64,000 nt of DNA from a virus. Positions 5,446-59,057 of this stretch are shown piece by piece; within the stretch, counting starts at the first letter, position 1, and every line of letters begins with the position of its first letter. A program made the position numbers and the translations under genes. Where the stretch lies: positions 32,001 through 96,000 of IMG/VR virus record IMGVR_UViG_3300027741_000022; one strand, given 5' to 3'. The notes beneath the pieces are model-generated. The model ran no database searches. It was not told the DNA's origin and was given only the letters and a program-made list of their open reading frames with translations.

Positions 5446-5463
5446 GTTTCTTCCCGGTACGCT
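5446..5463 (+). promoter_or_regulatory. Dispersed 18-bp promoter-like motif, copy 1
   Basis: GTTTCTTCCCGGTACGCT. Confidence 0.7.
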
Positions 5464-5485
5464 ACTGTTCTGGCAAGCTGGGTAG

Positions 5486-5514
5486 TTGACAAGTCTGGTT
5501 TGCTATGCTACGAT
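5486..5514 (+). promoter_or_regulatory. Sigma-70-type promoter
   Basis: TTGACA-N17-TACGAT with extended -10 TG. Confidence 0.7.
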
Positions 5515-5578
5515 TGGTGGATTGGTCGGATATTCTAAATATTATAATCGGATTTTACAGAAAAAGTTAACCCGAGAA

Positions 5579-5596
5579 GTTTCTTCTCGGTACGAT
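5579..5596 (+). promoter_or_regulatory. Dispersed 18-bp motif, copy 2
   Basis: GTTTCTTCTCGGTACGAT, 44 nt before the 5641 start. Confidence 0.7.
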
Positions 5597-5640
5597 GTGC
5601 TTCTGCGACAGCCCATAGACTGCTATAGAAGGAGAGATTC

Positions 5641-6735
5641 TTGATACCCCAGCAAGAGAGTATTTTTTTCCAAAAAGGAACAACACCAGACTCAGACAAG
5701 CTTAAAAAGTTCAAAAGACTTGTAGATCCTGAGTGCGAAGAGTCTCCATTTAATAAATTTGTAGGAAACAGAAAAGCTATCTCTAAACTTTCTGTAGTGG
5801 CTTTTAATGCCCTTCAAAGATACAACCATGTGTGCAGTGACATTTCTTTTGCTTTAACTGGACCTGCAAGTAGTGGAAAAACAACTCTTGTTAGACTGTT
5901 TGCCGAAATTTTAAAGCTACCACTTGCTGAGATTAGTCCGAAAAGCTTGGGTTCTCTTGATGATCTAATGCAACAGATTGCTGACGCGGCAGAAGAAAAG
6001 AATGTTCCTCTTGTTGAGTGTGGTGACGAGTTTTACGTTCTACCTCCATGTATCATTTTCATAGATGAGGTTCATGCTCTTAAAAACAGCATCGTTCAAG
6101 GACTGTTGAAAGCCACAGAGCCTAAAGATGCACAGCTTGTAACTGAATCTGGTTTGAAAGTAAATTGTTTTAATGCTTGTTGGATTATTGCCACAACAGA
6201 TATTGGCAAGGTCTTCGACGCATTCAGATCAAGATTCAGCACTATTGAATTAAAGTATTTGAGCAAAAAAGATATCTCCAAGATTGTTAAGAGTAACTTC
6301 CCTCAATTAGATGAGGAAGCCTGTGATTTAATTGCTCACTACAACCCTCAGATTCCGAGAAAAGCACTAGAGTTTGCAAGGTATGTTATTCTTTATGGAA
6401 ACATGGAGAAAGAAGGATCGTGGGAAGAAATTTGCGAAAAGGTTGCGGAAAACGAAGGAATTGACAAATATGGAATGCATGAGTCAAGTCTCGCTCTATT
6501 GAAGGTTTTGTCTAAACACAAAACTGTTCCGATGAAGAGAATTCCTTATTTTTTGAATAAAAAGATTGAAGAGATTGAAAATTATATCCTGCCGTGCCTG
6601 GTGAGCGATACTGATGAACAACCTTCTTTGGTTTCCGTAACACCAAGAGGTCTTTGTTTAACCGAAGCTGGTATGCAAGAATTAATTAAGAGAGATTTGA
6701 TTGAAGAGTCCGACATCATGGAGGAAATAGCTTGA
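5641..6735 (+). CDS. ruvB: RuvB-like AAA+ ATPase (Holliday junction branch-migration helicase family)
   Basis: GPASSGKT, IFIDEVH, IATT...FRSRF, PRKA and a C-terminal winged helix ending VTPRGLCLT, colinear with RuvB; TTG start with the SD AAGGAG. Confidence 0.7.
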   Translation: MIPQQESIFFQKGTTPDSDKLKKFKRLVDPECEESPFNKFVGNRKAISKLSVVAFNALQRYNHVCSDISFALTGPASSGKTTLVRLFAEILKLPLAEISPKSLGSLDDLMQQIADAAEEKNVPLVECGDEFYVLPPCIIFIDEVHALKNSIVQGLLKATEPKDAQLVTESGLKVNCFNACWIIATTDIGKVFDAFRSRFSTIELKYLSKKDISKIVKSNFPQLDEEACDLIAHYNPQIPRKALEFARYVILYGNMEKEGSWEEICEKVAENEGIDKYGMHESSLALLKVLSKHKTVPMKRIPYFLNKKIEEIENYILPCLVSDTDEQPSLVSVTPRGLCLTEAGMQELIKRDLIEESDIMEEIA

Positions 6736-6896
6736 AAAAATTCGACATTGGAGAAGTTGTGGTAGATTTAAAAACCGGTGAGATGGGCATCGTGTTTGAT
6801 TCAGAAATTGGATGCAATGCAGTTTTGGTAAATGTTGACGGTGAATTACAGGTATGGTTGCATAAAAACATTGACAAATATATTATTAATGCATAA
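6732..6896 (+). CDS. Small SH3/KOW-like protein
   Basis: Hand-found 54-aa ORF MKKFDIGEVVVDLKTGEMGIV..., overlapping the upstream stop (TTGA). Confidence 0.55.
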   Translation: MKKFDIGEVVVDLKTGEMGIVFDSEIGCNAVLVNVDGELQVWLHKNIDKYIINA

Positions 6897-9243: not shown

Positions 9244-9261
9244 GTTTCTTCGTGGTACGCT
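9244..9261 (+). promoter_or_regulatory. Dispersed 18-bp motif, copy 3
   Basis: GTTTCTTCGTGGTACGCT, 47 nt before the ATG at 9309. Confidence 0.75.
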
Positions 9262-10185: not shown

Positions 10186-10203
10186 CTTTCTTTGTGGTAC
10201 GCT
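10186..10203 (+). promoter_or_regulatory. Dispersed 18-bp motif, copy 4
   Basis: CTTTCTTTGTGGTACGCT, followed 3 nt later by a hairpin. Confidence 0.7.
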
Positions 10204-10206
10204 CAC

Positions 10207-10241
10207 ACTCCAGAGGCGGGAGAACCGCCTCTGGAGTTTTT
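10207..10241 (+). terminator. Rho-independent terminator
   Basis: 13-bp stem ACTCCAGAGGCGG/CCGCCTCTGGAGT plus a T-tract. Confidence 0.75.
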
Positions 10242-17561: not shown

Positions 17562-17579
17562 GTTTCCTCCCGGTACGCT
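17562..17579 (+). promoter_or_regulatory. Dispersed 18-bp motif, copy 5
   Basis: GTTTCCTCCCGGTACGCT, 8 nt before the ATG at 17588. Confidence 0.8.
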
Positions 17580-18954: not shown

Positions 18955-18972
18955 GTTTCTTCTTGGTACGCT
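18955..18972 (+). promoter_or_regulatory. Dispersed 18-bp motif, copy 6
   Basis: GTTTCTTCTTGGTACGCT. Confidence 0.8.
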
Positions 18973-19233: not shown

Positions 19234-19280
19234 TTACAATCGGCTAGGCGCGAAGCCTAGCCGATTGTAATTTCTTTTTT
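19234..19280 (+). terminator. Rho-independent terminator
   Basis: 15-bp stem TTACAATCGGCTAGG/CCTAGCCGATTGTAA plus a T-tract. Confidence 0.85.
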
Positions 19281-19287
19281 GTATAAT

Positions 19288-22674: not shown

Positions 22675-23288
22675 TTACCAAAACAATGACTAGTCGCTAT
22701 GATCTATCTAATTTTTTTGGAGTAGCTCGACTGCCTAGATCGAGTATTCGTAATAAGCGAGAACTCATTCAGATAGCAAATAAAGGTGGAGATAGACCTA
22801 GCCGTAAAACAAAATTGGGAAGAGTTTTAAGCAACTATACATGCAAACTTTCCGGTTCATACTGCCCAAAGTTTGATAAAACCATCAGAGAGCTAGCACC
22901 ACATTGGTTTTTATCTCGAATGAAAATCGCCAATCAAAAAAGACAAAAACTGATTAAGATGGCGAAGAATGGCAAAGATAAGCCGCACTGGAAGTCGAAA
23001 CTCTTTCAATATTTTAAAAGCTATATAACCAAATCATCAGGCAGTTATTGCCCAAAATTTTATAGAACTATCAAAAAATTTGCACCAAGTTGGTTATTAT
23101 CTCGCAAACAAGTTTCTAATCAAAAGAAACAAGAATTGATACGAATGGCAAATAGCGGTGAAAATAGACCAAAGCAAAAAACAAAAATTGGGTGTGCTTT
23201 GAGTAGTTATACAAAAAAATCCTCACTAGCGTATGACCCAGTATTCGATAAACTAATCAGAAAGCTTAGACCTGATTGGTTCGAGTAA
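22671..23288 (+). CDS. Repeat protein (3 x ~60-aa units), tandem paralog of 22228
   Basis: ATGA overlap; same MITKT.T N-terminus and same repeat unit. Confidence 0.75.
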   Translation: MITKTMTSRYDLSNFFGVARLPRSSIRNKRELIQIANKGGDRPSRKTKLGRVLSNYTCKLSGSYCPKFDKTIRELAPHWFLSRMKIANQKRQKLIKMAKNGKDKPHWKSKLFQYFKSYITKSSGSYCPKFYRTIKKFAPSWLLSRKQVSNQKKQELIRMANSGENRPKQKTKIGCALSSYTKKSSLAYDPVFDKLIRKLRPDWFE

Positions 23289-23300
23289 TAGTTTTTGAAA

Positions 23301-23318
23301 GTTTCCTCCCGGTACGCT
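23301..23318 (+). promoter_or_regulatory. Dispersed 18-bp motif, copy 7
   Basis: GTTTCCTCCCGGTACGCT. Confidence 0.8.
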
Positions 23319-23356
23319 CTTTGTGTGGTCGCACCCAAGGCTCTTGAGGTTTTACG

Positions 23357-23590
23357 ATGATTTCTGATGTTCTTTCCGATGCTGTTTCTGATATAGAAGA
23401 ATACTTGCAAGATCCAAGGGATTATTCTAAGGAAAGAGATTGGATTAAAAATCTCGTTGCACGAATGACAGCGTTGCGTGTTTATCTTGATTGTCCCCCC
23501 AATACAGATCCCCAATTTCTGGAGGATTTGAAAAGAGTCGAAAGCCAACATATGCTTGATCAAGTTTTAAATCAACGTATTCAACGATAA
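23357..23590 (+). CDS. Hypothetical protein
   Basis: SD GAGG; 38 nt after the motif. Confidence 0.65.
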   Translation: MISDVLSDAVSDIEEYLQDPRDYSKERDWIKNLVARMTALRVYLDCPPNTDPQFLEDLKRVESQHMLDQVLNQRIQR

Positions 23591-23605
23591 TAAAGGAACT
23601 ATATA

Positions 23606-24691
23606 ATGTCTGTAATTGAATCTGCTAATCTTTACTACAAAGAAGGCGCCAGCGATAAAGTTTATCACGCCACTATTGAAGATATTGGCGGCAACTATGT
23701 TGTCAATTTTGCTTATGGTCGAAGGGGAAGTGCTTTAAAGACCGGAAGCAAGACAAATTCGCCCACTTCACTAAATGAAGCAAAATCTATTTTCAATAGT
23801 CTTATCAAGGAAAAGACGGGAAAGGGCTACCAATATATTGACAAGGCTTCTAATGAAGCAATCAATGTTGTGAGCGATGATTTGCCCGACACTCCCACAG
23901 AAATTCAATGTGTGTTGCTCAATCCTATTGAACAGGATGAAGCAGAGCAGCTTATCGATAATGATGATTGGGCTTTGCAGCATAAACTTGATGGAGTTAG
24001 GTTTATGCTTGGTAAAAAAGAAAAAGAATCTCTCAATGCGTTTAATCGCAAGGGCAAAAGAACCAACATCCCCACTGTTATCTGGAATTCCATAAACAGT
24101 TTACAACACAGCTTTTTTATTGATGGGGAATTAATCGGAGAAACTTTCCATGTATTTGATATTCTTGAATATCAAGGAGAGTGTTTGCGTAAAAAGAGCT
24201 TTATTGAAAGAATGAAGCATCTTAAGACTTTGTTTAAGCATATTTCTTCTGAGCATATTGTCTTAACTCCTTTTTATACTGATAAAAAGGAAAAGCGTAA
24301 AATCTACGAAAATCTATTGGCAGGCAATCAAGAGGGTGTTGTATTCAAACATATTGATGCACACTATTATGTTGGTCGCCCTGCAAGTGGTGGTAAGTAT
24401 CTTAAGTATAAATTCTACAGCACATGTAGCTGCGTTGTAACAGCCATTAACAAAAAGCGTAGTGCCGCATTGGGTCTTTACAAGGGCAAGAAGCTTGTAA
24501 AGGCTGGCAACGTCACCATCTCTGTAAATTTCGATATTCCAGAAGTTGGTGATGTGGTTGAAGTAAAGTATCTTTATGCAAGAAAGCAATCTGGTGCTTT
24601 ATATCAGCCCATCTATCTTGGAAAAAGAACAGACGTAAATACCGAAGAGTGTCAGCAAAATCAACTTAAGTTTAAGGCAGAAGAAGAGTGA
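23606..24691 (+). CDS. WGR-domain ATP-dependent DNA ligase
   Basis: N-terminal LYYKEGASDKVY...YGRRG...K..KGY (WGR), then HKLDGVR, DGE, FD, EGVVFK, KYKF and an OB fold. Confidence 0.85.
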   Translation: MSVIESANLYYKEGASDKVYHATIEDIGGNYVVNFAYGRRGSALKTGSKTNSPTSLNEAKSIFNSLIKEKTGKGYQYIDKASNEAINVVSDDLPDTPTEIQCVLLNPIEQDEAEQLIDNDDWALQHKLDGVRFMLGKKEKESLNAFNRKGKRTNIPTVIWNSINSLQHSFFIDGELIGETFHVFDILEYQGECLRKKSFIERMKHLKTLFKHISSEHIVLTPFYTDKKEKRKIYENLLAGNQEGVVFKHIDAHYYVGRPASGGKYLKYKFYSTCSCVVTAINKKRSAALGLYKGKKLVKAGNVTISVNFDIPEVGDVVEVKYLYARKQSGALYQPIYLGKRTDVNTEECQQNQLKFKAEEE

Positions 24692-25194
24692 TGCGTTTAA
24701 ACGCTGACTATATTCGTCTTAATTTGTCGAATGTTTGTGATTTTCCGCAAATGTTTATCGATAAATCAAAAGAATTTTATGACACAGACATTTTAAATCT
24801 AACAATAGATGTTAAGTATTACGATCATGTTTCAAACAGTCATGGCTGCCCAATAAATGGTGTGATTAATTGGGGCGGCAGAATAGAAGGCGCTCCAAGA
24901 AATTATCCCGGCTGGCAGGGTCATATTTCTTTTTTTGCACAAAACAATAAGAATACACATGTAGATTGTGCATCAAATATGCTTTTCAATTCGTATGGAT
25001 ATGGATTTAGAGGATTTCACACAAGTGGTGGATGCCCAGGCAGAATTAATGAATATCCAGTCAGTATTGGCTTTTATTTCTTTTTGGAAGACTTTCCAAA
25101 TTTAGTTAAGAGTAAAGAAAAGTGGAATTTGCTTAAAACCTTTAATAACAAACAGGAATCTTGGGATTCTTTTTCAGCCTTGAAATATTCCTGA
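24688..25194 (+). CDS. Hypothetical protein
   Basis: Overlapping start and stop with the ligase. Confidence 0.6.
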   Translation: MMRLNADYIRLNLSNVCDFPQMFIDKSKEFYDTDILNLTIDVKYYDHVSNSHGCPINGVINWGGRIEGAPRNYPGWQGHISFFAQNNKNTHVDCASNMLFNSYGYGFRGFHTSGGCPGRINEYPVSIGFYFFLEDFPNLVKSKEKWNLLKTFNNKQESWDSFSALKYS

Positions 25195-25214
25195 TATTCT
25201 GACTAAATACAGTC

Positions 25215-26147
25215 ATGTTAAAGTTTTTTATTATTTTTGTTGTCTTGATTTTTTCAAGCCCTATTTTCGCCCAAGATAAAACAGGGTTTGCGATAGATGT
25301 TAATGCAAACAATATAGCCGGTCTGTTCACAATGACAGATGAAGGTGGCAGATTAAGAAATTTGGATTTGATGGAAGGCGTGTTTAAAGACGGATCTCTT
25401 GGTTTTAAATCAGAGAGATATCACAACGTTCCATCTAATTTCATATATTCAAAAATGGCTGATATGGCTTCAAAACTTGATGATAATGGAACACTACTTC
25501 TTTATCTGAATAGCCATGGAGGAGGAAGTGGAAATAGATTTATAATGACTTCTTCTGATGGCAATTTTAGATTTAGTAAAGCAATTGCAGCAATAGCTAA
25601 GGTTAAAACTGTTAGAAGATTGGTGTTTTTAGTTGATACTTGTCATGCCGCCGGAAGTATTCAAGAAAGCTTAAAAGAAGACGGACAGCTTTTAAGAGAT
25701 ATTCAAATAGCCACACCCACAGATTATCTGCCCGAAATGCCCAATAGATTTTCATTTAAAATTAAGCCTTTTGCTGGAATATTCAGCTTGAAGAATGATG
25801 AAATAGATTTTTGTGAAGACAGTGGTGCTTATGAAGAAATTCTTATTATTAGCTCTTCAAGTGTTGAAGATCTTTCAACAAGAGGAGTTTTTGCCTCAAG
25901 GTTATCTGCTACATTCAATGCTGTTAAAGAAAACAAAGAAATAACCTTAGCCCAATTCTTAAAGAAGTTTGCAGATAGTCATGGAAATAGCGGGCAGCAA
26001 CCATATTATAAGGTTTTACCAAATAGATCCATGTTGAGTGAGTTTTTATTTGGTCCATTGCCGGCACAGCAAATACCAGTTAAAAATTACTCTTCAGATG
26101 GCTTAAAAGATTTTTCTCCAAATTACATTCTCTATCCAGCAAAATAG
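25215..26147 (+). CDS. Secreted caspase-like (clan CD) peptidase
   Basis: Signal peptide; LLLYLNSHGG (His) and FLVDTCHAAG (Cys) dyad; IISSSS and Q.PY typical of the caspase/legumain fold. Confidence 0.65.
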   Translation: MLKFFIIFVVLIFSSPIFAQDKTGFAIDVNANNIAGLFTMTDEGGRLRNLDLMEGVFKDGSLGFKSERYHNVPSNFIYSKMADMASKLDDNGTLLLYLNSHGGGSGNRFIMTSSDGNFRFSKAIAAIAKVKTVRRLVFLVDTCHAAGSIQESLKEDGQLLRDIQIATPTDYLPEMPNRFSFKIKPFAGIFSLKNDEIDFCEDSGAYEEILIISSSSVEDLSTRGVFASRLSATFNAVKENKEITLAQFLKKFADSHGNSGQQPYYKVLPNRSMLSEFLFGPLPAQQIPVKNYSSDGLKDFSPNYILYPAK

Positions 26148-26174
26148 CAAATATATCTTCGAAAATATATTATC

Positions 26175-26381
26175 ATGATGATTGGCGAAATCAAAAAGTG
26201 GGCTAAATCTTTGGAATATGATGTCAAAAATTCTAAAGAAGGCGGATATAGCTGGAAATATATTGGCGATGAAGAATATTCGCGTTCAGAAGATGTGGAC
26301 TCTTTAGCCAAAGATATTTTTAACCATCTAACAAAAGGCAAGTGGAAAGACTACCAAGAAAAGTTCCAGAAACTTGCTTGA
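26175..26381 (+). CDS. Hypothetical protein
   Basis: ORF track. Confidence 0.6.
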   Translation: MMIGEIKKWAKSLEYDVKNSKEGGYSWKYIGDEEYSRSEDVDSLAKDIFNHLTKGKWKDYQEKFQKLA

Positions 26382-26452
26382 CAACTACTTGCCTACTACC
26401 TTAGTATGTGCGTTTGTGTTCTTTTGTTTTGTTCTAACCCGAGGAGACGATT

Positions 26453-26752
26453 GTGAAGACTAAGCTTTCCAAAACCGATATGACAGCTAGAAACAAGCAG
26501 ATTTTTGAGATGCGTAAGAATGGTGCTACTCAAAACGAGATAGCAGAAAAGTTCGGAGTATCAGCCCCCAGAATCGGGCAAATACTTTCTGATTACAAAA
26601 AGCCTTATAAAAGCATGAAGAAAAAGGCTTTGTCGGTTATTGATGAGGTTACATCTAAGAAGAAGCAGAACAATGTAGATCTTGTTTCTGCTATTATTAA
26701 GTGTGATATGGATGCTAATGCTAAACTGGAACTTTTGAAGAATTTCTTCTAA
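26453..26752 (+). CDS. HTH (sigma region 4-like) protein
   Basis: RNKQIFEMRKNGATQNEIAEKFGVSAPRIGQIL; SD GAGGAG. Confidence 0.75.
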   Translation: MKTKLSKTDMTARNKQIFEMRKNGATQNEIAEKFGVSAPRIGQILSDYKKPYKSMKKKALSVIDEVTSKKKQNNVDLVSAIIKCDMDANAKLELLKNFF

Positions 26753-26772
26753 ATTTTAGGAAAGGATTTCCT

Positions 26773-27357
26773 GTGAAAGATAAAAGAACTTTATCAGACT
26801 TGGGTAAATCCCTATCCATAGATTGTAGTGATGTTGTTTTAGAAAGCGAACAAGATTTAAATGATTTGCTTTCTGAAAAGGATTTGATTTTTGTGAAACA
26901 ATATCTGCTCCAAAAAGGAGCTAAAGATATTAAAGAAACTCCAAACGAGGATGAAGATATGAATGCTTTGAAGATTTGCAAACGAGGAATTACTGGTGCT
27001 CAGAATAGAAAAGAAGTTTATAATCTGGTTGAGTCCATGATTAGAGACAATCCTTTAAAACCCGGCTTTAAAACTGGATATAAGGAAGCAGCTTCTTATA
27101 TCAACAAGCAGGGATATAGGGATTCGAATGGTTTTAAGTGGAAGGTAAAAACTTTGGTTGATTTTTATCATCATTACAATGAAAGAAGCACGGCAACTAA
27201 AACTAAGGTTGCTTCAACCAAGATTAGTGCTGCTGTCAAGTCGGTTGTTGAAACAAAGTCTGCACACAATATTCGGGATCTTGTTAAGTGTATAATTGAC
27301 TGCAATCTGGACAGTGATTTGAAGTTAAAGCTTATTCCACTTGTTTTGAAAGGATGA
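26773..27357 (+). CDS. Putative DNA-binding protein (recombinase-like winged helix)
   Basis: GYKEAASYINKQGYRDSNGFKWKVKTL; C-terminus similar to that of 26453. Confidence 0.5.
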   Translation: MKDKRTLSDLGKSLSIDCSDVVLESEQDLNDLLSEKDLIFVKQYLLQKGAKDIKETPNEDEDMNALKICKRGITGAQNRKEVYNLVESMIRDNPLKPGFKTGYKEAASYINKQGYRDSNGFKWKVKTLVDFYHHYNERSTATKTKVASTKISAAVKSVVETKSAHNIRDLVKCIIDCNLDSDLKLKLIPLVLKG

Positions 27358-27375
27358 AGTATAGAGTAGATTAAA

Positions 27376-27663: not shown

Positions 27664-27812
27664 TTTGTCTGAGAAACAAAAAATTATTCCATGTTGCAAA
27701 AAATATTTCTACCAGTCTCTTGCCTTTTGTTTTTGAGCGTATATGTTTGAAACAGAAGACAAGATCAAATGTTGGTCTTGCGGGAAAGAAACCGACACTG
27801 TGAGAAACCAAG

Positions 27813-28073: not shown

Positions 28074-28094
28074 TTCTTTCGGTATCATGCTTTC

Positions 28095-28138: not shown

Positions 28139-28144
28139 TGCCAT

Positions 28145-28162
28145 GTTTCTTTGTGGTACGCT
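28145..28162 (+). promoter_or_regulatory. Dispersed 18-bp motif, copy 8
   Basis: GTTTCTTTGTGGTACGCT, 17 nt before the ATG at 28180. Confidence 0.8.
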
Positions 28163-28179
28163 CGGTGTCTGGAGGATTT

Positions 28180-28359: not shown

Positions 28360-28363
28360 ACAT

Positions 28364-28392
28364 TTGACAAATTTTTGAAAAAACGGTATAAT
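28364..28392 (+). promoter_or_regulatory. Consensus sigma-70 promoter
   Basis: TTGACA-N17-TATAAT, with CGG before the -10 as in the dispersed motif. Confidence 0.85.
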
Positions 28393-28750: not shown

Positions 28751-28768
28751 GTTTCTTTGTGGTACGCT
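28751..28768 (+). promoter_or_regulatory. Dispersed 18-bp motif, copy 9
   Basis: GTTTCTTTGTGGTACGCT. Confidence 0.8.
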
Positions 28769-32416: not shown

Positions 32417-32694
32417 AGACTATGGCAAAAGAACCAAAAAACACTGCTGCTGATATTGTTGAAGAAAAGAAAATCAATGAGAGCGATATTATTGATTTGC
32501 TTTTTAAGCAAGTTGAAAAGCCTAAAAATTGTATCAAGATTAAGGCTGTGAATGTTTATGGAAATCGTTATCGTATAAACATTTGGACTATTGTTCATGA
32601 AGATAGTTTTGATAAAAATAAGATTACACAAAGCTACTTCTGTATTGTAGATGAAAATAAAGTTAAGATCATAATGGGTAATAACACCCCGTAG
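32413..32694 (+). CDS. Hypothetical protein
   Basis: SD AAGGA; NVYGNRYRINIW motif. Confidence 0.65.
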   Translation: MKTMAKEPKNTAADIVEEKKINESDIIDLLFKQVEKPKNCIKIKAVNVYGNRYRINIWTIVHEDSFDKNKITQSYFCIVDENKVKIIMGNNTP

Positions 32695-32711
32695 TTTCTT
32701 CTTGGTACGCT
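32694..32711 (+). promoter_or_regulatory. Dispersed 18-bp motif, copy 10
   Basis: GTTTCTTCTTGGTACGCT; its first G is the last base of the upstream TAG stop. Confidence 0.8.
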
Positions 32712-38959: not shown

Positions 38960-39797
38960 CAATATACTTACAGTTGATAAAAAAGATCTTGATTTAACTG
39001 ACTCATCTGCAGTAGATAAATACTTTTCAGATAATTACATTGAGTATGTTTTTAATGCCGCTGCTAAAGTTGGTGGCATAAAAGCCAATAATACACAACC
39101 TGCAGATTTTATAACACAAAACATAAGAATACAAACTAATCTTATTGAATCTTCAAATAGACACGGTGTTAAAAAATTCTTGTTTCTCGGCAGCTCTTGC
39201 ATATACCCAAAATTTGCAAAACAACCAATAACAGAAGATCAATTGTTAGCTGGGTGTCTTGAGCCTACAAACGAAGCTTATGCTATCGCAAAAATCTGTG
39301 GAATTAAAATGTGTCAGGCATACAGTCAGCAATATGGATTCAATGCTATTTCCTTAATGCCAACAAACCTGTACGGTCCAGGAGATAATTATGATCCTAA
39401 AAACAGTCATGTATTGCCTGCTATGATCAGAAGGTTTCATGAAGCCAAAATTAATAATGTTTCTGAAGTGGTTTGTTGGGGTGATGGCTCACCAAAAAGA
39501 GAGTTTTTATATGTAGATGATCTGGCGTATGCTTGTTTGTTGTGTATGTTGAATTACGAAAGCGATGAAATTATAAATGTGGGAACAGGCACTGATATAA
39601 CCATAAAAGAGCTCGCTGGGATTGTTGCAAATGTTGTTGGTTATGAAGGAAGTATTGTTTGGGATGATGTTGCTGCAATCAACGGCACACCCAGAAAAGT
39701 TTTAAATATCGATAAGATAAAATCTCTTGGATGGGAAGCTAAAGTGGATTTACCCACGGGCATATCCGAGGCATACTCAAGTTTCTTGGCAAAGTAG
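38871..39797 (+). CDS. fcl: GDP-L-fucose synthase
   Basis: GHKGLVGSA, AAAKVGGI, FLGSSCIYPK, LEPTNEAYAIAK, MPTNLYG, SHVLPA, REFLYVDD, GTPRK. Confidence 0.95.
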   Translation: MNKTSRIFVTGHKGLVGSAILRNLQKNGYSNILTVDKKDLDLTDSSAVDKYFSDNYIEYVFNAAAKVGGIKANNTQPADFITQNIRIQTNLIESSNRHGVKKFLFLGSSCIYPKFAKQPITEDQLLAGCLEPTNEAYAIAKICGIKMCQAYSQQYGFNAISLMPTNLYGPGDNYDPKNSHVLPAMIRRFHEAKINNVSEVVCWGDGSPKREFLYVDDLAYACLLCMLNYESDEIINVGTGTDITIKELAGIVANVVGYEGSIVWDDVAAINGTPRKVLNIDKIKSLGWEAKVDLPTGISEAYSSFLAK

Positions 39798-40866: not shown

Positions 40867-41445
40867 ATGTTATATACTAAGTTTAAAATTAGCGATCATG
40901 CTGCCGAGAGGTTTCGTGAAAGATTTGATCATATTAAGTTGTCGATAGACACTCTGCTGCAAAATTCTATTTATTTTGGTGGACAAAAAGGATCCGACTA
41001 CCTACTTATTAACAAAGAGCATGAAATCGTTTTTCCTGTATCCTGTGACCACATAATCAAATCGGTTCTCACGCTCCAGCAAGCTAAATCAAATCTTTCA
41101 CTTATTAACAAAACAATACTATTCGAATTAGAGAAGAGTAAGTGTGAAGAACTACGAAAAAACGCCGAAGATGAAATTGTCAGTAAATTAAAAATTTTGG
41201 CAAGAGAATATCTTTCTCTTAGACCAGAAGAGCACAGAAATTGTCCTGGAGTTCAAGAGACAAAGTGTTTGATAAAGAAAATTAAAAAGACATTATCTTT
41301 GCCCTCTGCACAGATCGACAAAATTTTTATAGGTGAAATAATAAGAATCGTGCAAGAGTCAGATTGGTCTTGTTTGAATCCTGATAGTAACTGGTCTAGC
41401 ACCGAGGAATTGTTATCTAATTTTAAGTTAGATCCAAAAGCTTAA
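40867..41445 (+). CDS. Hypothetical protein
   Basis: N-terminal ISDHAAERFRERF motif. Confidence 0.55.
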   Translation: MLYTKFKISDHAAERFRERFDHIKLSIDTLLQNSIYFGGQKGSDYLLINKEHEIVFPVSCDHIIKSVLTLQQAKSNLSLINKTILFELEKSKCEELRKNAEDEIVSKLKILAREYLSLRPEEHRNCPGVQETKCLIKKIKKTLSLPSAQIDKIFIGEIIRIVQESDWSCLNPDSNWSSTEELLSNFKLDPKA

Positions 41446-42027
41446 TGGACACCAAATTCTATTTGATAAACCGCATTTTCTCAATCCAATATTCACCCAG
41501 TTATTGCAGTTTGTTACACAGCTATATTTTAGATTTGACTCGTAAAAGTCCCCAATCTGATAGTGCCAATCTTCTTTTTTTATTTTTTGTTTATTGTATG
41601 AATTTGTTATATGTTTCTTTAATGCGTTGAATTGTTTTTTGTTTGCAGTGAATTTTTTCAATCTTTTTTCTTTGGGAATTTCATCTAAAAAGTCTACTCT
41701 CAATACGGTTTTGTTTAATCCAAAGAAAGCTTTTACAAAATTTTCAATTTTTAGATCTGCCCACTTTTGTGTCTCTAAGAATATTGATCTGTCGCCCCAA
41801 CCTATTGAAACATATTTCTTATCAGTCTTAAATATATTTGTCCAATCTTTTGATTCAAAAACATAGTCAGAATGAATAGCATCTTTTATCACAAAAATCT
41901 TTTTTCTGCCTTTCAATTTCTCAATTTTTCCACTTTTAAATAGCGGCAAAAGCAAGCAACAAATCAAATAAATTAAGAATATTGGGAAAAAAACTAAAAA
42001 TACGGTAAAATAAAACAATTTCTTCAT
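41428..42027 (-). CDS. DUF2459 (TIGR02117-like) protein
   Basis: HSD, SIGWGDR.IFL.T..W.DL, Y.C...CNNWVN..L. Confidence 0.75.
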   Translation of the reverse strand: MKKLFYFTVFLVFFPIFLIYLICCLLLPLFKSGKIEKLKGRKKIFVIKDAIHSDYVFESKDWTNIFKTDKKYVSIGWGDRSIFLETQKWADLKIENFVKAFFGLNKTVLRVDFLDEIPKEKRLKKFTANKKQFNALKKHITNSYNKQKIKKEDWHYQIGDFYESNLKYSCVTNCNNWVNIGLRKCGLSNRIWCPLSFWI

Positions 42028-43741: not shown

Positions 43742-43759
43742 GTTTCCTCCCGGTACGCT
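43742..43759 (+). promoter_or_regulatory. Dispersed 18-bp motif, copy 12
   Basis: GTTTCCTCCCGGTACGCT directly after a TAG stop. Confidence 0.8.
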
Positions 43760-47673: not shown

Positions 47674-47835
47674 ATGAGAGTTATTTGCGTAAACAATGAA
47701 AATTATCCGGTTTCTCTTTCTTTAAATAAAGAATATGAAGTTGTAAGAATAGAAGAATTTTTTTATGTTATTTTGGATGAAACTCTAGAAGAATACTTAT
47801 ACCCAATAGAGCTTTTTGAAATTTCAAAGGATTGA
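47674..47835 (+). CDS. Small hypothetical protein
   Basis: Hand-found 53-aa ORF MRVICVNNENYPVSLSLNKEYEV... Confidence 0.6.
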   Translation: MRVICVNNENYPVSLSLNKEYEVVRIEEFFYVILDETLEEYLYPIELFEISKD

Positions 47836-47860
47836 AAAAGCATCTAACATATTGTATAAT
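47832..47860 (+). promoter_or_regulatory. Sigma-70-type promoter (leaderless transcript likely)
   Basis: TTGAAA-N17-TATAAT, with an ATG 7 nt after the -10. Confidence 0.65.
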
Positions 47861-47867
47861 GAAGGCT

Positions 47868-48284
47868 ATGAATCTCGAAAGGATTATTGAGACAAGCTTT
47901 GCTCTTGCTGGCAAATATCCCTATAAAAATAGGTGCAAGCACTTTAGCTTTATTCTTGAAAGAAATAGATTAATTTCCATTGGAATAAACAGCCCTAAAA
48001 CTCATCCGCTAAACTTAAAGTTCAATTATGTCAACAAGCAAAAGCTTAAGATAAACGATATAGTTGGAACACATTCTGAATTGAGTGCTGTGATAAAACT
48101 TGGTAATGAAAATTGCAAAGGTCTAACTATCATCAATACAAGAGTCAATAGAAACAACGAAATAGATAATAGTTGTCCTTGTAATGGCTGTAAGGATATG
48201 ATTAAGAAGCTTGGTTTTAAGAAGTTAGTTTATACCACAAAACAACAAAAATTTGAAATCATAGATGTGGAAAAAATCTCCTGA
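47868..48284 (+). CDS. Zn-dependent deaminase (CMP/dCMP family)
   Basis: HSE ... SCPCNGC. Confidence 0.75.
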   Translation: MNLERIIETSFALAGKYPYKNRCKHFSFILERNRLISIGINSPKTHPLNLKFNYVNKQKLKINDIVGTHSELSAVIKLGNENCKGLTIINTRVNRNNEIDNSCPCNGCKDMIKKLGFKKLVYTTKQQKFEIIDVEKIS

Positions 48285-48490: not shown

Positions 48491-49333
48491 ATGGATTTCA
48501 AAGATAGAATCGAAAAAATAAAAAGTATACTTCCTTTAAAGTTTTTTTACGAAAAAAGCTTTGATACAAATTCAAGAACTAAAATATTATCTGATTTGAA
48601 GTTGGATGGTCTCGATAAAGAATCATCTATTTTAAGATGCGGAGTTCTTTTAACTAGGGAGCAAGAACTTCACCTGTTCAGAAGATATAACTATATCAAA
48701 TATAGGATTTCCAAACTAACTGTCAATCTTGAAAAATTAAGAGATAGTGGATTAACTGAGATAGAAAAAAATATCAATAAGATGCACGAGACCAGAAATG
48801 TTATCATGAAGTGTAATATGCGTCTTATTGTTAAACCTTCTATCAAACATTTTGGCGTAGATACCTTTAATACAGAAGAGTTTTTCTCTAATGGTTATAT
48901 TCACATGATGAGAGCTATAGACTTTTTTGATCATACAAGAGGGTTTAAGTTTTCAACATACTTTGTTAATGTTTTGTATAGAAATTTTCAAAGAGATAGA
49001 GCTAAGCTTTTTGATAGCAGGTGTGATTTTCTTGAACATGATCCTCAAGACCAAAGAGATGTCAATTACCGAGAAATAAATCACAACTATAACAGACGGT
49101 TTATCAAAGATATGTTAGCCACTTTGGGCGAAAGCTTAAAGGGTTCAAGAAAAGATCCTGTTGTTAGAGCGGCTGTTATTGAAAAATATTTCGGCATAGA
49201 CAACGGCGAAGAAAAAACACTACATGAAGTTGGTCTTCAATTTGGTGTTTCAAGAGAGCGTATTCGACAATTGGTTGATGATACAATCAATGTTCTTAAA
49301 AAATCAAACATCTCTTACGATCCCCTTGATTGA
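48491..49333 (+). CDS. Sigma-70-family RNA polymerase sigma factor
   Basis: Region 1.2 LLTREQELHLFRR; region 2 NMRLIV...RAIDFFD.TRGFKFSTY; region 4 TLHEVG..FGVSRERIRQL. Confidence 0.9.
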   Translation: MDFKDRIEKIKSILPLKFFYEKSFDTNSRTKILSDLKLDGLDKESSILRCGVLLTREQELHLFRRYNYIKYRISKLTVNLEKLRDSGLTEIEKNINKMHETRNVIMKCNMRLIVKPSIKHFGVDTFNTEEFFSNGYIHMMRAIDFFDHTRGFKFSTYFVNVLYRNFQRDRAKLFDSRCDFLEHDPQDQRDVNYREINHNYNRRFIKDMLATLGESLKGSRKDPVVRAAVIEKYFGIDNGEEKTLHEVGLQFGVSRERIRQLVDDTINVLKKSNISYDPLD

Positions 49334-50578: not shown

Positions 50579-50596
50579 GTTTCTTCCTGGTACGCT
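50579..50596 (+). promoter_or_regulatory. Dispersed 18-bp motif, copy 13
   Basis: GTTTCTTCCTGGTACGCT, with TTGCGT 17 nt before the hexamer. Confidence 0.8.
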
Positions 50597-50617: not shown

Positions 50618-50635
50618 AACTGTTCGTGGTACGCT
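50618..50635 (+). promoter_or_regulatory. Dispersed motif, degenerate copy 14
   Basis: AACTGTTCGTGGTACGCT. Confidence 0.55.
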
Positions 50636-54116: not shown

Positions 54117-54134
54117 CTTTCTTCCTGGTACGCT
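54117..54134 (+). promoter_or_regulatory. Dispersed 18-bp motif, copy 15
   Basis: CTTTCTTCCTGGTACGCT. Confidence 0.75.
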
Positions 54135-56243: not shown

Positions 56244-56261
56244 GTTTCCTCCCGGTACGCT
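56244..56261 (+). promoter_or_regulatory. Dispersed 18-bp motif, copy 16
   Basis: GTTTCCTCCCGGTACGCT. Confidence 0.8.
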
Positions 56262-56985: not shown

Positions 56986-57725
56986 AAATGATTGAATGTA
57001 TCAAAAGTGCAGAAATTAGAGACGCACTCAATAGTGAGTCCCACAGCAAGAATACAAACTTGCTAAGAGATTTATTTACAGAAATTCCAACTCTGAAAAG
57101 TGTTGGCTTTTGCAAATACAATGAATATAATGATAATAATTATTCTGATTATTTCAAAATTACTTCAATAAATGGAGTAATTTTTGATCGTGATGACTGT
57201 TATGTCGATGAAGAAGGCAATGAAACAAAAGATTTGCCCAAAGAGATGCCAGATAGGAACTATGAAGTTCCATTCATCATCAAAACGCTAGAAAGCTTAT
57301 CAGAAGAATATGGTTATGACGATTATCTGGAAACAAGAGAATCTGTTTTAAGCAAACCCAGGAAAAAAGAAAATAAAGATAAAGCTTTCAATGCTTATTA
57401 TATCTCTTTAAAGACTGGTGAAAAAGTAAATGATTTATCTGTATTTAAAAACAATCCCAATTGGGCTCTTTATTATTCTATGGATGTTTTAAAAGACAGG
57501 CTTCCAAGGGAGATAGAGAGTGTTTTTAAGAAAGATATTAGATTTGCTTATTATTACGCAAAAAATGTCATAAAGGGTAGCCTTCCCGAAATGATTGAAA
57601 AGTATTTTCTTCAAAAAGCAAAAAATATTTTGCTTGAGACCTTTGATAAAGATGGTTATGTGAATCCCGAGGACAAATATTACCTTCGAAAATACGTAGA
57701 GTTTACTAACGGGAGCAAAAAGTAA
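56982..57725 (+). CDS. Two-domain protein with C-terminal ~27-aa helical repeats
   Basis: NPNWALYYSMDVLKDRLPREIE / DIRFAYYYAKNVIKGSLPEMIE. Confidence 0.65.
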   Translation: MKMIECIKSAEIRDALNSESHSKNTNLLRDLFTEIPTLKSVGFCKYNEYNDNNYSDYFKITSINGVIFDRDDCYVDEEGNETKDLPKEMPDRNYEVPFIIKTLESLSEEYGYDDYLETRESVLSKPRKKENKDKAFNAYYISLKTGEKVNDLSVFKNNPNWALYYSMDVLKDRLPREIESVFKKDIRFAYYYAKNVIKGSLPEMIEKYFLQKAKNILLETFDKDGYVNPEDKYYLRKYVEFTNGSKK

Positions 57726-57892
57726 TGAAGAATTTTTTGATTTTTTCTGTTGTAGTTCTTGCAATTGTGTCTATGGGCTTTTCTAAAAAGACATACAAGT
57801 ACGTTTGTCCTAAGTGCAAGCTAGTTCAAGAGTATGAAAACATTGGAACAAAAAAGTGTCCCAATGATGGAAGAACCATGATTAGGAAGTAA
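57725..57892 (+). CDS. Small secreted zinc-ribbon-like protein
   Basis: Hand-found 55-aa ORF: signal peptide, then CPKC...CPND. Confidence 0.55.
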   Translation: MKNFLIFSVVVLAIVSMGFSKKTYKYVCPKCKLVQEYENIGTKKCPNDGRTMIRK

Positions 57893-57893
57893 G

Positions 57894-58415
57894 ATGGAAA
57901 TTCGACATAAATATTTATCTAAAACAAGATTCCCAGAAATTGTAGTTAGGGAATACGATTTTGATAAATTCTGTGCTAAGTATAGAATTTTCAGCAATAT
58001 TGTTTCTGAGATGAAGAATATAATTAGCTCTGGTTTTAAGAACTATCTTGTTAATATTGTGTCTGCCAATTATAAGGCTGGCGAAAGAACCTGTTCGGAC
58101 ACTCGATACCATGTAGATGGAGAGTTTAATAGCGGCAATGAGTATTGCATATGGTGCAGTGGCGTAAACAGAACAATTTTTCCAAGTGAAACAATTGAAC
58201 TTCAGGACTTTCCAGCCGACAGAAATTCCCAGAATGTTTTTCTTGAAAGAGCTTTGAAAGGTAAAAAGTCTTCTGAAATCCCTAATCAAACTTTTGTTCA
58301 TTATTCAAGCAAAGATCCACACAAGGGCGTAAATTGTAAAAAGTCAGGCAGGCGTGTTTTTATTCGTTTGATGGGAACAAATTACATTGGTGCAAAAAAT
58401 TATGCAAAAATCTAA
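57894..58415 (+). CDS. 2OG-Fe(II) dioxygenase-like protein
   Basis: YHVDG (HxD), distal H.G and RVFIR. Confidence 0.55.
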   Translation: MEIRHKYLSKTRFPEIVVREYDFDKFCAKYRIFSNIVSEMKNIISSGFKNYLVNIVSANYKAGERTCSDTRYHVDGEFNSGNEYCIWCSGVNRTIFPSETIELQDFPADRNSQNVFLERALKGKKSSEIPNQTFVHYSSKDPHKGVNCKKSGRRVFIRLMGTNYIGAKNYAKI

Positions 58416-59025
58416 ACCTATGTCTGTTTATTCTTATAAACAACACACAATAAACATATACTACGATAAAAACCCAGAAAATAACCCAAGGTCAAATGAT
58501 AATCTTGGAACTATTCTCTACGGAGATAATGAAGAATATCATGAACTTTGTAACTGGGGTGATGCAGTTGCAGATTGGGATGAGATAGAAGAAATAGAAA
58601 AAAATGACAGTTGCATATACACCCCAGTTTATGGTGCTGTAACAATGAATGGAATTGTTTTAAGTGCAAATCCTATTGGTGGTTTTGGCAAAAGTGGAAA
58701 ATGCGGAATAATTCACAACACAAAACGCAACCTTGATTTGATGAAGAGTTCTTACCACTCTTTCCAGAAAGATAGCAAATCTTTGCTCAGTAGTTTTTCT
58801 GATTATGATTGGGCTATCTCTGTTTTCAAAAAAGAAATACGAGTGTTTAGCGACTTCCTTGAAGGAAGAGTTTATGGCTATGAAACAGAAAATACTGCTG
58901 GGGAAGTTTTGGACAGTTGCTGGGGTTATATTGGAGTGGATATAAAAGAAATATACGAGGAAGCAAAAGAGATAATCGACAAGTGCTACTCTGAAAACGA
59001 AGAGCCTATTGAACAGCTTTATTGA
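58402..59025 (+). CDS. Conserved phage hypothetical protein
   Basis: D..PENPR..DNLG...L.GRVYGY...DSCWGYIG. Confidence 0.65.
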   Translation: MQKSKPMSVYSYKQHTINIYYDKNPENNPRSNDNLGTILYGDNEEYHELCNWGDAVADWDEIEEIEKNDSCIYTPVYGAVTMNGIVLSANPIGGFGKSGKCGIIHNTKRNLDLMKSSYHSFQKDSKSLLSSFSDYDWAISVFKKEIRVFSDFLEGRVYGYETENTAGEVLDSCWGYIGVDIKEIYEEAKEIIDKCYSENEEPIEQLY

Positions 59026-59029
59026 CGGA

Positions 59030-59057
59030 TTGACAAGAAGTTTCCTCGCGGTACGCT
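59030..59057 (+). promoter_or_regulatory. Dispersed 18-bp motif, copy 17, with a consensus -35
   Basis: TTGACA-N16-TACGCT; motif GTTTCCTCGCGGTACGCT at 59040-59057. Confidence 0.8.

What the first reader, a model, noticed from the sequence alone, without database searches (positions are those of the whole stretch)
5446..59057. Dispersed 18-bp element (A)GTTTCYTYBYGG-TACGCT, 17 copies: a candidate new phage promoter class or regulon
Seen: copies start at 5446, 5579, 9244, 10186, 17562, 18955, 23301, 28145, 28751, 32694, 39797, 43742, 50579, 50618 (degenerate), 54117, 56244 and 59040. Five are the identical 18-mer GTTTCCTCCCGGTACGCT. All are on the + strand and intergenic (two share one base with an upstream TAG). 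Sixteen lie 8-72 nt upstream of a start codon; the first is a tandem copy 177 nt upstream. Four abut an upstream TAG. Support for TACG(C/A)T being a -10 hexamer: it fits TAnnnT with a YGG extended -10; an ordinary TTGACA-N17-TACGAT promoter sits at 5486; TTGACA-N16 precedes copy 17; the consensus promoter at 28364 has the same CGG before TATAAT; a TATAAT variant ATTTCTTTTTTG-TATAAT sits at 19270. Most copies lack a -35 and instead conserve a pyrimidine box at about -24 to -13, a region that sigma-70 promoters normally leave free. Inference: a dedicated factor (the phage sigma at 48491, a host alternative sigma, or a MotA-like activator acting in the spacer) reads this box and controls about 15 transcription units.
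Basis: partly seen in the sequence, partly recalled or inferred. Interest (0 to 1): 0.85.

Follow-up and report, generated by a model that had tools for sequence, protein, structure and literature searches.

The report
Phage-specific promoter repeated forty times
A GC-rich 18-base signal that sits in front of about 40 blocks of non-structural genes in an uncultured freshwater jumbo phage is most likely a phage-specific promoter read by the phage's own unusual sigma factor; this type of system is known, but the sequence, the sigma lineage and the promoter layout are new.

Summary
All 17 copies are at the stated coordinates, all on the + strand (chance expectation 0.01). The window lies in a 188-kb jumbo-phage contig. 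There the core octamer GGTACGCT occurs 38 times forward and never in reverse, and all 30 copies with the pyrimidine box lie between + strand genes.

The full element is about 35 bp: AA, box, TACGCT, 7 nt, TG. It does not fold as RNA. Three copies head + strand blocks after a strand switch. Four copies have a perfect TTGACA exactly 16 bp upstream (P about 1e-9). It therefore sits where a sigma-70-family -10 element sits.

Relatives carrying a sigma of the same lineage (41-47% identical) have their own versions (GGGG-TACG-N-Y; AATTG-TACCCT), in the same register and before orthologous genes. A 30% relative, whose sigma keeps a tryptophan, has a different motif.

The phage sigma is modelled with two domains and no sigma-3, and it lacks the W433/W434 pair. 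It lies behind a host-type promoter.

Best reading: a middle-type promoter class read by the phage sigma. This is inferred; no transcript data were available. The role of the box is unknown.

The scan had already noted this element in overlapping windows of the same genome, but not on other DNA.

The parts
5446..5463 (+). motif copy 1 (box type); first of a tandem pair, 177 nt before the next called start
5579..5596 (+). motif copy 2 (hexamer TACGAT); 44 nt before an AAA/RuvB-like ATPase gene
9244..9261 (+). motif copy 3
10186..10203 (+). motif copy 4; followed 6 nt later by a strong terminator-like hairpin (-28 kcal/mol, z -7.5)
17562..17579 (+). motif copy 5 (identical 18-mer); before an HD-domain gene
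18955..18972 (+). motif copy 6
23301..23318 (+). motif copy 7 (identical 18-mer); identity to two relatives jumps exactly here
28145..28162 (+). motif copy 8; follows an intrinsic-terminator-like hairpin and a minus-strand gene
28751..28768 (+). motif copy 9
32694..32711 (+). motif copy 10; shares one base with the upstream stop codon
39797..39814 (+). motif copy 11 (identical 18-mer); about 3 kb upstream of it (the intein-bearing Gmd gene and a 308-aa ORF) has no close counterpart at this place in relative G003
43742..43759 (+). motif copy 12 (identical 18-mer); before a MoxR-like AAA gene whose orthologues in G006 and G007 follow those phages' motif versions
50579..50596 (+). motif copy 13; first of a tandem pair
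50618..50635 (+). motif copy 14; second flank type, same core octamer
54117..54134 (+). motif copy 15
56244..56261 (+). motif copy 16 (identical 18-mer)
59030..59057 (+). motif copy 17 together with a perfect TTGACA 16 bp upstream of the hexamer
48491..49333 (+). phage sigma-70-family factor, the candidate reader. It has regions 1.2-2.4 and 4.2, no sigma-3 domain in the model, and N/V in place of W433/W434.
47832..47860 (+). near-consensus host-type promoter (11 of 12, N17). It is followed by an ATG at 47868 (probably leaderless) and heads the 138-aa, 71-aa and sigma genes.
28364..28392 (+). perfect TTGACA-N17-TATAAT host-type promoter, intergenic
5486..5514 (+). TTGACA-N17-TACGAT promoter-like site between copies 1 and 2
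19270..19287 (+). variant with a T-rich box and TATAAT, after a hairpin and directly before an ATG

Best explanation
The 18-mer is the core of a phage-specific promoter of about 35 bp. Its layout is AA, a 12-bp pyrimidine box ending in GG, the hexamer TACGCT, 7 free bases, then TG. It drives some 35-40 transcription units of non-structural genes. These include ATPases, ligases, a helicase, an HD protein and many small ORFs. They lie across about 120 kb of one strand of an uncultured freshwater jumbo phage.

The hexamer occupies the -10 position of a sigma-70-family holoenzyme. Transcription probably starts 6-9 nt after it, at the conserved G/T-rich patch.

The most likely reader is host core RNA polymerase carrying the phage's own sigma (window 48491-49333). 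This sigma is modelled with two domains (sigma-2 and sigma-4), and the tryptophan pair that normally opens the -10 element is replaced. It would be made first from a host-type promoter at 47832. After that it would also be made from the motif promoter upstream of its operon, giving positive feedback. Four copies that also carry a perfect -35 could fire with the host sigma as well.

Shown:
- The anatomy, strand bias and placement of the element.
- The -35 coincidence.
- Conservation in relatives.
- The features of the sigma.

Inferred:
- That it initiates transcription.
- The timing.

Unknown:
- What the pyrimidine box contacts.
For: 1. Statistics and placement. The core octamer occurs 38 times forward and 0 in reverse. 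All 30 box-bearing copies lie outside + ORFs in a genome that is 86% coding. Information content is about 33 bits, with sharp edges at -14 and +5 relative to the hexamer T, plus T13/G14.

2. Promoter rather than RNA element.
- Copies at genome 60145, 99852 and 156992 head + strand blocks directly after minus-strand genes.
- One copy follows a strong terminator.
- The sequence does not fold better than shuffles.
- There is no Rfam match.

3. The -10 position. Four of 40 copies have a perfect TTGACA at exactly 16 bp, none at other spacings, P = 1.4e-9.

4. Relatives.
- G003 keeps all five shared copies 18/18 identical, while the aligned flanks are about 64% (upstream) and 77% (downstream) identical.
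- G006 (sigma 42%) has 49 forward and 3 reverse copies of a T-rich box + GGGG + TACG-N-Y.
- G007 (sigma 41%) has 74 forward and 9 reverse copies of an A-rich stretch + TTG + TACCCT.
- All three keep TG at hexamer +8/+9.
- Orthologous genes (the MoxR-like AAA and the RuvB-like AAA) follow the respective motif version in each phage.
- L031 and L032 (sigma 47%) have the box + GGTACGGT before their sigma gene.

5. The sigma.
- It is the only sigma found in 188 kb.
- Region 4.2 has the RERIRQ helix of primary sigmas. Region 2.3 has N/V for W433/W434.
- The model shows sigma-2, a short linker and sigma-4.
- G010, whose sigma keeps a W at that place, has a different motif, TGCGATAA.

6. Order of expression.
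- A host-type promoter precedes the sigma operon here and the sigma gene in G007.
- A sigma gene served by both a host-type and a phage-specific promoter was inferred computationally for phage 7-11 (PMC4331800).

7. No gp55, AsiA, MotA C-domain, T7-like RNAP or beta-prime domain was found in the contig.
Against: - There are no transcript data of any kind, so start sites and timing are inferred.
- The sigma gene itself lies inside a motif-headed unit here and directly behind the motif in L031 and L032. This also fits a motif that fires without the phage sigma.
- A second candidate phage-specific class (TATATA before late-region genes) also needs a reader, and only one sigma was found. The sigma could serve that class instead.
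- The link between sigma and motif is a co-occurrence among related phages that share many other genes (72 and 33 shared proteins), so it is not independent evidence.
- The sigma keeps a canonical -35-reading helix, yet 36 of 40 copies have no -35.
- The contig is only about 75% complete, so an RNA polymerase or another factor could be encoded in the missing part.
Confidence: 0.58

Rival explanations
1. The motif is the phage's early promoter. It is read by host RNA polymerase with the host primary sigma, perhaps helped by a modification or an injected factor as with T4 Alt. In this reading the phage sigma serves the later TATATA class before structural genes.
For: - The hexamer fits TAnnnT in this phage. 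G at -14 is invariant and T at -15 occurs in half of the copies, as in an extended -10.
- Four copies have a consensus -35.
- The sigma gene lies inside a motif-headed unit, and in L031 and L032 it lies directly behind the motif.
- About 40 copies before small ORFs resembles the roughly 40 T4 early promoters (own knowledge).
- TATATA is enriched before late-region genes, and no gp55 was found to read it.
Against: - The motif differs sharply between related phages (GGTACGCT, GGGGTACGNY, TTGTACCCT), whereas primary-sigma specificity is nearly universal.
- In G006 the last hexamer base is often C, which breaks the T-7 rule.
- 36 of 40 copies lack a -35, and the -10 is GC-rich.
- True consensus host-type promoters exist in the same genome, and one precedes the sigma operon.
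Confidence: 0.2
2. The host sigma-70 holoenzyme reads the hexamer, and a separate phage DNA-binding activator bound to the pyrimidine box replaces the missing -35 contact. This would be a functional analogue of T4 MotA/AsiA sigma appropriation.
For: - The box is the most phage-specific part. It is conserved where sigma-70 promoters are free, and 36 of 40 copies lack a -35.
- The hexamer is TAnnnT here.
Against: - No AsiA or MotA C-terminal domain was found in 188 kb.
- The box lies at -26 to -13, not centred at -30.
- The box is not a dyad.
- G007 has no pyrimidine box but keeps the rest of the layout.
- This reading leaves the phage sigma without a known promoter class, unless the TATATA class is its own.
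Confidence: 0.12
3. The element acts in RNA. It would be a processing site, or an anti-Shine-Dalgarno stretch (CCUCC in the box) that masks the next ribosome-binding site on read-through transcripts.
For: - The box contains CCTCC in 18 copies.
- In folds from the motif to the start codon, the box pairs with the Shine-Dalgarno region (at least 6 pairs) in about half of the cases.
- Many copies follow a stop codon directly, so read-through RNA would contain them.
Against: - A pyrimidine tract pairs with any nearby purine-rich site, so one search has no control value.
- There is no stable or conserved structure.
- Copies head blocks after strand switches and after a terminator, where little read-through RNA is expected.
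- The invariant part is the hexamer with its GG, not the CCTCC.
- G007 has no pyrimidine box.
- The perfect -35 at a fixed 16 bp has no meaning in RNA.
Confidence: 0.05
4. The element is mainly a recombination or cassette-boundary site, used for shuffling gene modules as with PeSLs, and has no promoter role of its own.
For: - Identity to G003 and to the L175 contig changes abruptly at copy 23301.
- About 3 kb directly upstream of copy 39797 has no close counterpart at that place in G003.
- Some copy pairs share 28-33 bp.
Against: - Strict strand polarity, a fixed distance to start codons, the -35 coincidence and the conserved TG downstream are not needed for recombination.
- Three of the five copies shared with G003 show no break.
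- Boundary behaviour is expected as a by-product of any repeated 18-35 bp identity.
Confidence: 0.05

Closest known systems
Promoter classes read by phage-encoded sigma-70-family factors (SPO1 gp28 middle promoters; phiEco32 / 7-11 phage-sigma promoters, PMC4331800)
   Same: - The phage carries its own sigma.
- The motif is unlike the host consensus, strand-specific and repeated before non-early genes.
- The sigma gene is served by both a host-type and a phage-type promoter.
- As in the 7-11 motifs, the emphasis is on the -10 region, with no fixed -35.
   Different: - The consensus is different and GC-rich, in a 34% GC genome.
- A conserved 12-bp box fills the spacer region.
- There is a conserved TG at about +2/+3.
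- The sigma belongs to an uncharacterised lineage. It resembles primary sigmas in regions 2 and 4.2 but has no sigma-3 and no W433/W434.
- Sigma dependence is not shown here.
T4 middle promoters (MotA box plus sigma-70 -10, with AsiA)
   Same: A phage-specific upstream element stands in for the -35, next to a TAnnnT hexamer, and drives delayed-early and replication genes.
   Different: - The box lies at -26 to -13, not centred at -30.
- No MotA or AsiA homologue was found.
- The phage has its own sigma.
PeSL cassettes of T4-like phages (PMC2839356, PMC4122927)
   Same: - A repeated promoter-bearing motif lies between small accessory genes on one strand.
- It coincides with indel and identity breakpoints between close relatives.
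- The portal of this phage is a distant T4-type gp20.
   Different: - PeSLs carry the host sigma-70 consensus plus an adjoining stem-loop.
- Here the promoter is non-canonical.
- A strong hairpin adjoins only 5 of 40 copies on either side.
Extended -10 promoters (TGn-TATAAT)
   Same: - G at -14 is invariant and T at -15 occurs in half of the copies.
- The -35 is dispensable.
   Different: - The hexamer is GC-rich.
- Conservation runs 10 bp further upstream.
- The extended -10 is read by sigma region 3.0, which the phage sigma appears to lack.
Promoters of single-subunit phage RNA polymerases (T7-like, about 23 bp)
   Same: - Information content is very high.
- Conservation is contiguous and reaches the start region.
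- There are dozens of co-oriented copies.
   Different: - No such polymerase gene was found in 188 kb, though the control for that search did not ring.
- Four copies carry a sigma-type -35 at a fixed spacing.

Membership tests
Host sigma-70 -35/-10 promoter | -10 hexamer fitting TAnnnT | tested here: met
   40 of 40 copies are TACGCT or TACGAT. In relative G006 the last base is C or T.
Host sigma-70 -35/-10 promoter | TTGACA-like -35 element 16-18 bp upstream | tested here: not met
   Only 4 of 40 copies have one (all perfect, all N16). The other 36 have more than 2 mismatches.
Host sigma-70 -35/-10 promoter | Transcription start 6-8 nt after the hexamer | not testable with these tools
   No RNA run was listed.
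Extended -10 promoter | T at -15 and G at -14 | tested here: inconclusive
   G at -14 in 39 of 39 copies, T at -15 in 19 of 39 and C in 19 of 39.
Phage-sigma-dependent promoter class | The phage encodes a sigma-70-family factor | tested here: met
   Pfam Sigma70_r2 and r4 match. It is the only sigma in the contig. The best solved matches are primary sigmas.
Phage-sigma-dependent promoter class | A recurrent motif unlike the host consensus, co-oriented with and upstream of genes | tested here: met
Phage-sigma-dependent promoter class | The sigma gene can be expressed by host RNAP first | tested here: met
   An 11-of-12 host-type promoter at 47832 heads the sigma operon. G007 has TTGTCA-N16-TATAAT 66 nt before its sigma gene.
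Phage-sigma-dependent promoter class | The motif changes together with the sigma among relatives | tested here: inconclusive
   The GTAC-type motifs go with N at the W433 place. G010, which has W there, has TGCGATAA. The lineages are few and share ancestry.
Phage-sigma-dependent promoter class | Initiation depends on the phage sigma | not testable with these tools
   This needs in vitro transcription or infection time-course data.
T4 middle promoter (MotA/AsiA) | MotA box centred near -30 | tested here: not met
   The conserved box spans -26 to -13, and nothing is conserved at -30.
T4 middle promoter (MotA/AsiA) | MotA and AsiA proteins are encoded | tested here: not met
   PF09158 and PF09010 give no match in 188 kb. 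The contig is about 75% complete.
T4-type late promoter | TATAAATA element and a gp55 sigma | tested here: not met
   The motif is unrelated. phrog_234 and phrog_12791 give no match.
PeSL cassette | Host sigma-70 consensus promoter | tested here: not met
PeSL cassette | Adjoining stable stem-loop | tested here: not met
   z below -2 in 5 of 40 copies downstream and 5 of 40 upstream. The mean z is about -0.5.
PeSL cassette | Lies at indel or identity breakpoints between close relatives | tested here: met
   Breaks occur at copies 23301 and 39797 against G003, and at 23301 against L175. There are none at the other three shared copies.
Single-subunit RNAP promoter | A cognate T7-like RNA polymerase gene | tested here: inconclusive
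   PF00940 gives no match, but the control rang nowhere and the contig is incomplete.

The most novel reading that the evidence does not exclude
A clade of uncultured freshwater jumbo phages uses two-domain sigma factors that lack sigma-3 and the W433/W434 melting pair. These sigmas would recognise promoters whose specificity lies in a contiguous stretch from about -26 to -7 plus a +2/+3 TG, with no -35. The spacer box would be contacted by the sigma's conserved N-terminal extension or by core polymerase. Sigma and promoter have co-diversified among lineages (GGTACGCT, GGGGTACGNY, TTGTACCCT, TGCGATAA), giving a natural set of mutually orthogonal sigma/promoter pairs.
Probability: 0.3. Interest if true: 0.65.

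Novelty: new variant of a known kind. Interest (0 to 1): 0.45.

Why it matters
If the reading is right, it gives a transcription map for the non-structural two-thirds of an uncultured jumbo phage. About 40 units can be annotated from sequence alone.

It also defines a new sigma lineage with its cognate promoter. The related phages offer several diverged sigma/promoter pairs in the same architecture. That is useful material for asking how -10 recognition can be rebuilt without the canonical tryptophan pair and without sigma-3. It is also a possible source of orthogonal sigma/promoter parts.

The motif also marks mosaic junctions between close relatives. This extends the idea of promoter-mediated module shuffling, known from T4-like phages, to a non-canonical promoter.

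It does not reveal a new principle of gene regulation.

Tried and rejected
- RNA evidence: the look-up of sequencing runs on window 23001-33000 listed no RNA holder.
The contigs of the closest sigma homologues (60-86% identical, P0002-P0011) could therefore not be read.
- Megablast of 7 kb against the phage collection gave no match.
- An exact 17-mer scan of IMG/VR found only G003 plus four chance singletons in high-GC contigs.
- An exact 18-mer scan of 596 Gb of prokaryote genomes gave 8 singletons, about chance level. One of them (L175) is a mis-binned fragment of a related phage. There was no host clue.
- LR756511.1, the closest portal at 51%, has no excess of the octamer and only distant sigmas.
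- G009 and G011 (sigma about 30%) showed no dominant strand-specific motif. Both contigs are only 33-39% complete.
- Sigma-54 reading: I compared by eye against the sigma-54 consensus as I recall it. GG to the downstream TG is about 3 bp too long for the fixed -24/-12 spacing, and the phage factor is sigma-70 family. Rejected.
- ECF-type reading, with the box as -35 and the downstream GTTG as -10 at 17 bp: rejected. It would place the most conserved bases in the spacer, and the box has the wrong polarity for GGAAC.
- A structured RNA or known RNA family: rejected.
- Stem-loops as part of the element: found at a minority of copies only.
- Conserved partner genes next to the sigma: none. The 138-aa gene upstream looks like a deaminase by eye (not checked against a family library), and its G006 homologue lies 9 kb from that phage's sigma gene.
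- Literature search for the motif strings returned only primer coincidences.

Full report
**Observation**

All are on the + strand, against 0.01 expected. The 17th site (50618) has the same core octamer behind a different flank.

The window is bases 32001-96000 of a 187,644-bp IMG/VR virus record with 34% GC, rated about 75% complete. In the whole record:
- The core octamer GGTACGCT occurs 38 times forward and never in reverse, with about one expected per strand.
- It is the most over-represented 8-mer.
- Thirty copies carry the full pyrimidine box.
- Five or six carry a second flank type, ACTGTTCGTGG. A few lone octamers inside ORFs may be chance.

**Setting**

The copies run from 37 to 159 kb of the contig, with a few out to 186 kb. 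This region is almost wholly + strand. It is filled with small ORFs and nucleic-acid enzymes:
- an AAA/RuvB-like ATPase, an HD protein, ATP-dependent ligases, a ResIII helicase and a GHKL ATPase;
- a MoxR-like AAA with a VWA partner, a GDP-mannose dehydratase with an intein, and the sigma factor.

The flanks of the contig hold the portal (a distant T4-type gp20), tail proteins and other large genes on both strands, and no motif.

All 30 box-bearing copies lie outside + strand ORFs, although 86% of the genome is called coding. Fourteen begin within 15 nt of the upstream stop. The next start codon follows at a median of about 50 nt.

**Anatomy**

I aligned the copies on the T of the hexamer. Conservation starts abruptly two bases before the box (AA) and runs through the box, the invariant GG and the hexamer. 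It then stops, and returns weakly at T13/G14 and in a G-rich patch at 17-19. In all this is about 33 bits.

Within the box, T at -9, T at -6 and C at -5 are shared by both flank types. Other positions vary mostly C to T.

**Why a promoter and not an RNA signal**

- Three copies (genome 60145, 99852, 156992) follow minus-strand genes and so open + strand blocks. One of these also follows a strong terminator-like hairpin.
- Fifty-base RNA folds around six copies are no more stable than shuffles.
- Strong hairpins adjoin only 5 of 40 copies on either side.
- Rfam finds nothing.
- Most telling, four copies have a perfect TTGACA exactly 16 bp before the hexamer. No copy has one at any other spacing, and no other copy comes within two mismatches at that spacing (P = 1.4e-9). 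This places TACGCT at the -10 position of a holoenzyme whose sigma-4 reads TTGACA.

**Relatives**

G003 shares 21 kb at 77-98% protein identity. It keeps all five motif copies in that stretch letter for letter, while the aligned flanks are about 64% (upstream) and 77% (downstream) identical.

A profile of the sigma's homologues located more distant phages:

| Relative | Sigma identity | Motif version | Forward / reverse |
|---|---|---|---|
| G006 | 42% | T-rich box, GGGG, TACG, any base, pyrimidine | 49 / 3 |
| G007 | 41% | A-rich stretch, TTG, TACCCT | 74 / 9 |
| L031, L032 | 47% | box plus GGTACGGT, directly before the sigma gene | one copy each |
| G010 | about 30% | TGCGATAA, a different motif | 17 / 3 |

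- G000, G006 and G007 all keep TG at hexamer +8/+9.
- Orthologous genes sit behind the respective version. The MoxR-like AAA does so in all three phages, and the RuvB-like AAA in two.
- The versions are therefore equivalent elements that have drifted.
- The portal's closest relative, a 595-kb phage, has neither the octamer nor a close sigma.

**The candidate reader**

The contig encodes one sigma-70-family protein. It shows no T7-like polymerase, beta-prime domain, gp55, AsiA or MotA C-domain.
- The sigma matches primary sigmas over regions 1.2-2.4 and 4.2. This includes the RERIRQ recognition helix.
- In region 2.3 the FSTY motif is followed by N and V where sigma-70 has W433 and W434. This holds in all GTAC-type phages, whereas G010 keeps one W.
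- An AlphaFold model (pLDDT 80) shows sigma-2, a roughly 16-residue disordered linker and sigma-4, with no sigma-3 domain.

An 11-of-12 host-type promoter at 47832 sits 7 nt before an ATG. It heads a three-gene unit that ends in the sigma gene. In G007 a similar promoter lies 66 nt before the sigma gene. A sigma gene served by both host-type and phage-type promoters was inferred computationally for phage 7-11 (PMC4331800).

**Weighing**

That the element is a promoter seems likely (about 0.8). That the phage sigma reads it is the best single hypothesis (about 0.55-0.6), but it rests on co-occurrence in related genomes and on the sigma's odd -10 region.

The main rival is that host holoenzyme reads the motif early, and the phage sigma serves the TATATA class. 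That class is enriched before late-region genes (15 of 71 against 2.1 expected).

Points against this rival:
- The motif diverges fast among relatives.
- The last hexamer base is C or T in G006.
- Genuine consensus promoters are present in the same genomes.

Points for it:
- The sigma gene lies behind the motif in L031 and L032.
- Only one sigma was found for two phage-specific classes.

**The box**

Its role is open.
- It lies where sigma-70 promoters are free, and where sigma region 3.0 and the beta-prime zipper touch DNA. The phage sigma seems to lack region 3.
- G006 has a T-rich box and G007 an A-rich one, so the requirement is lineage-specific.
- It could be contacted by the sigma's conserved N-terminal 50 residues, by core polymerase or by an unknown protein.
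- The CCTCC inside it can pair with downstream Shine-Dalgarno sites in folds. That is expected of any pyrimidine tract, and G007 does not share the feature.

**Boundaries**

- At copy 23301, identity to G003 and to a 1.8-kb lake contig (L175) changes from about 50-70% upstream to over 90% downstream, exactly at the motif.
- At copy 39797, about 3 kb directly upstream has no close counterpart at that place in G003.
- The motif thus also marks mosaic junctions, as PeSLs do in T4-like phages (PMC2839356, PMC4122927). It fails two PeSL criteria: a host-consensus promoter and an adjoining stem-loop.

**Novelty and limits**

Promoter classes read by phage sigmas are well known. What is new here:
- the sequence;
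- the sigma lineage;
- the contiguous -26 to -7 layout with a downstream TG;
- its co-divergence across an uncultured clade.

The motif strings do not occur in the held literature except as primers.

Limits:
- No transcript data were available.
- The host is unknown.

Noticed in passing
genome 1-37000 and 159500-187644 (outside the window), also window 4619-5011 and 41428-42027: TATATA is enriched in the 80 nt before late-region genes (15 of 71 against 2.1 expected). It often lies 4-8 nt before the ATG or at divergent junctions. This is a second candidate phage-specific (late) promoter class, and no gp55 was found to read it.
   Followed up: partly
window 47832-47870: A near-consensus host-type promoter has its -10 ending 7 nt before an ATG. 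The 138-aa gene, which looks like a deaminase by eye, is therefore probably on a leaderless mRNA. The same unit carries the sigma gene.
   Followed up: partly
G007 (L130-L137), about 38-89 kb: There are 74 copies of an A-rich stretch + TTG + TACCCT, about one per 700 bp. Many have a near-identical 5' leader ending in CCCCAACGGAG before the start codon. Almost every small gene has its own promoter-leader cassette.
   Followed up: partly
G010 (L143-L150), 141-154 kb: A different strand-specific motif (G/C)C-TGCGATAAAA is followed about 17 nt later by CTAGTG, 17 forward against 3 reverse. This phage's sigma homologue keeps a tryptophan in region 2.3.
   Followed up: no
window 10204-10240: Copy 4 is followed 6 nt later by a 13-bp GC-rich hairpin and a T run, a terminator placed after the promoter's -10. 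Depending on the true start site, it could stop read-through transcripts but not promoter-initiated ones.
   Followed up: no
window 36818-39797 against G003 about 5956-6177: The GDP-mannose dehydratase gene, which carries an intein with a LAGLIDADG-like insert, and the following 308-aa ORF have no close counterpart at this place in G003. G003 goes straight from the 64-aa gene to the motif. The only G003 match to the dehydratase is a weak 29% hit far away, at about 43 kb.
   Followed up: partly
G003 (L016-L022): Only the first 21 kb of this 125-kb IMG/VR contig is related to the window's genome. The rest shares almost nothing, so the contig is either a deep mosaic or a chimeric assembly.
   Followed up: no
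L175 (CAIQHW010000413.1): A 1.8-kb contig binned into a 'bacterial' lake MAG is a fragment of a close relative of this phage (91.5% identity from the motif onward).
   Followed up: yes
L032 about 60-270: By eye, the gene just upstream of the motif and sigma gene in this relative looks CsrA-like (VRIGIDAP...V.V.R.E). This was not checked against a family library.
   Followed up: no
window 5446/5579 and 50579/50618: Two tandem pairs of motif copies lie 133 and 39 bp apart. The first pair brackets a TTGACA-N17-TACGAT site.
   Followed up: no
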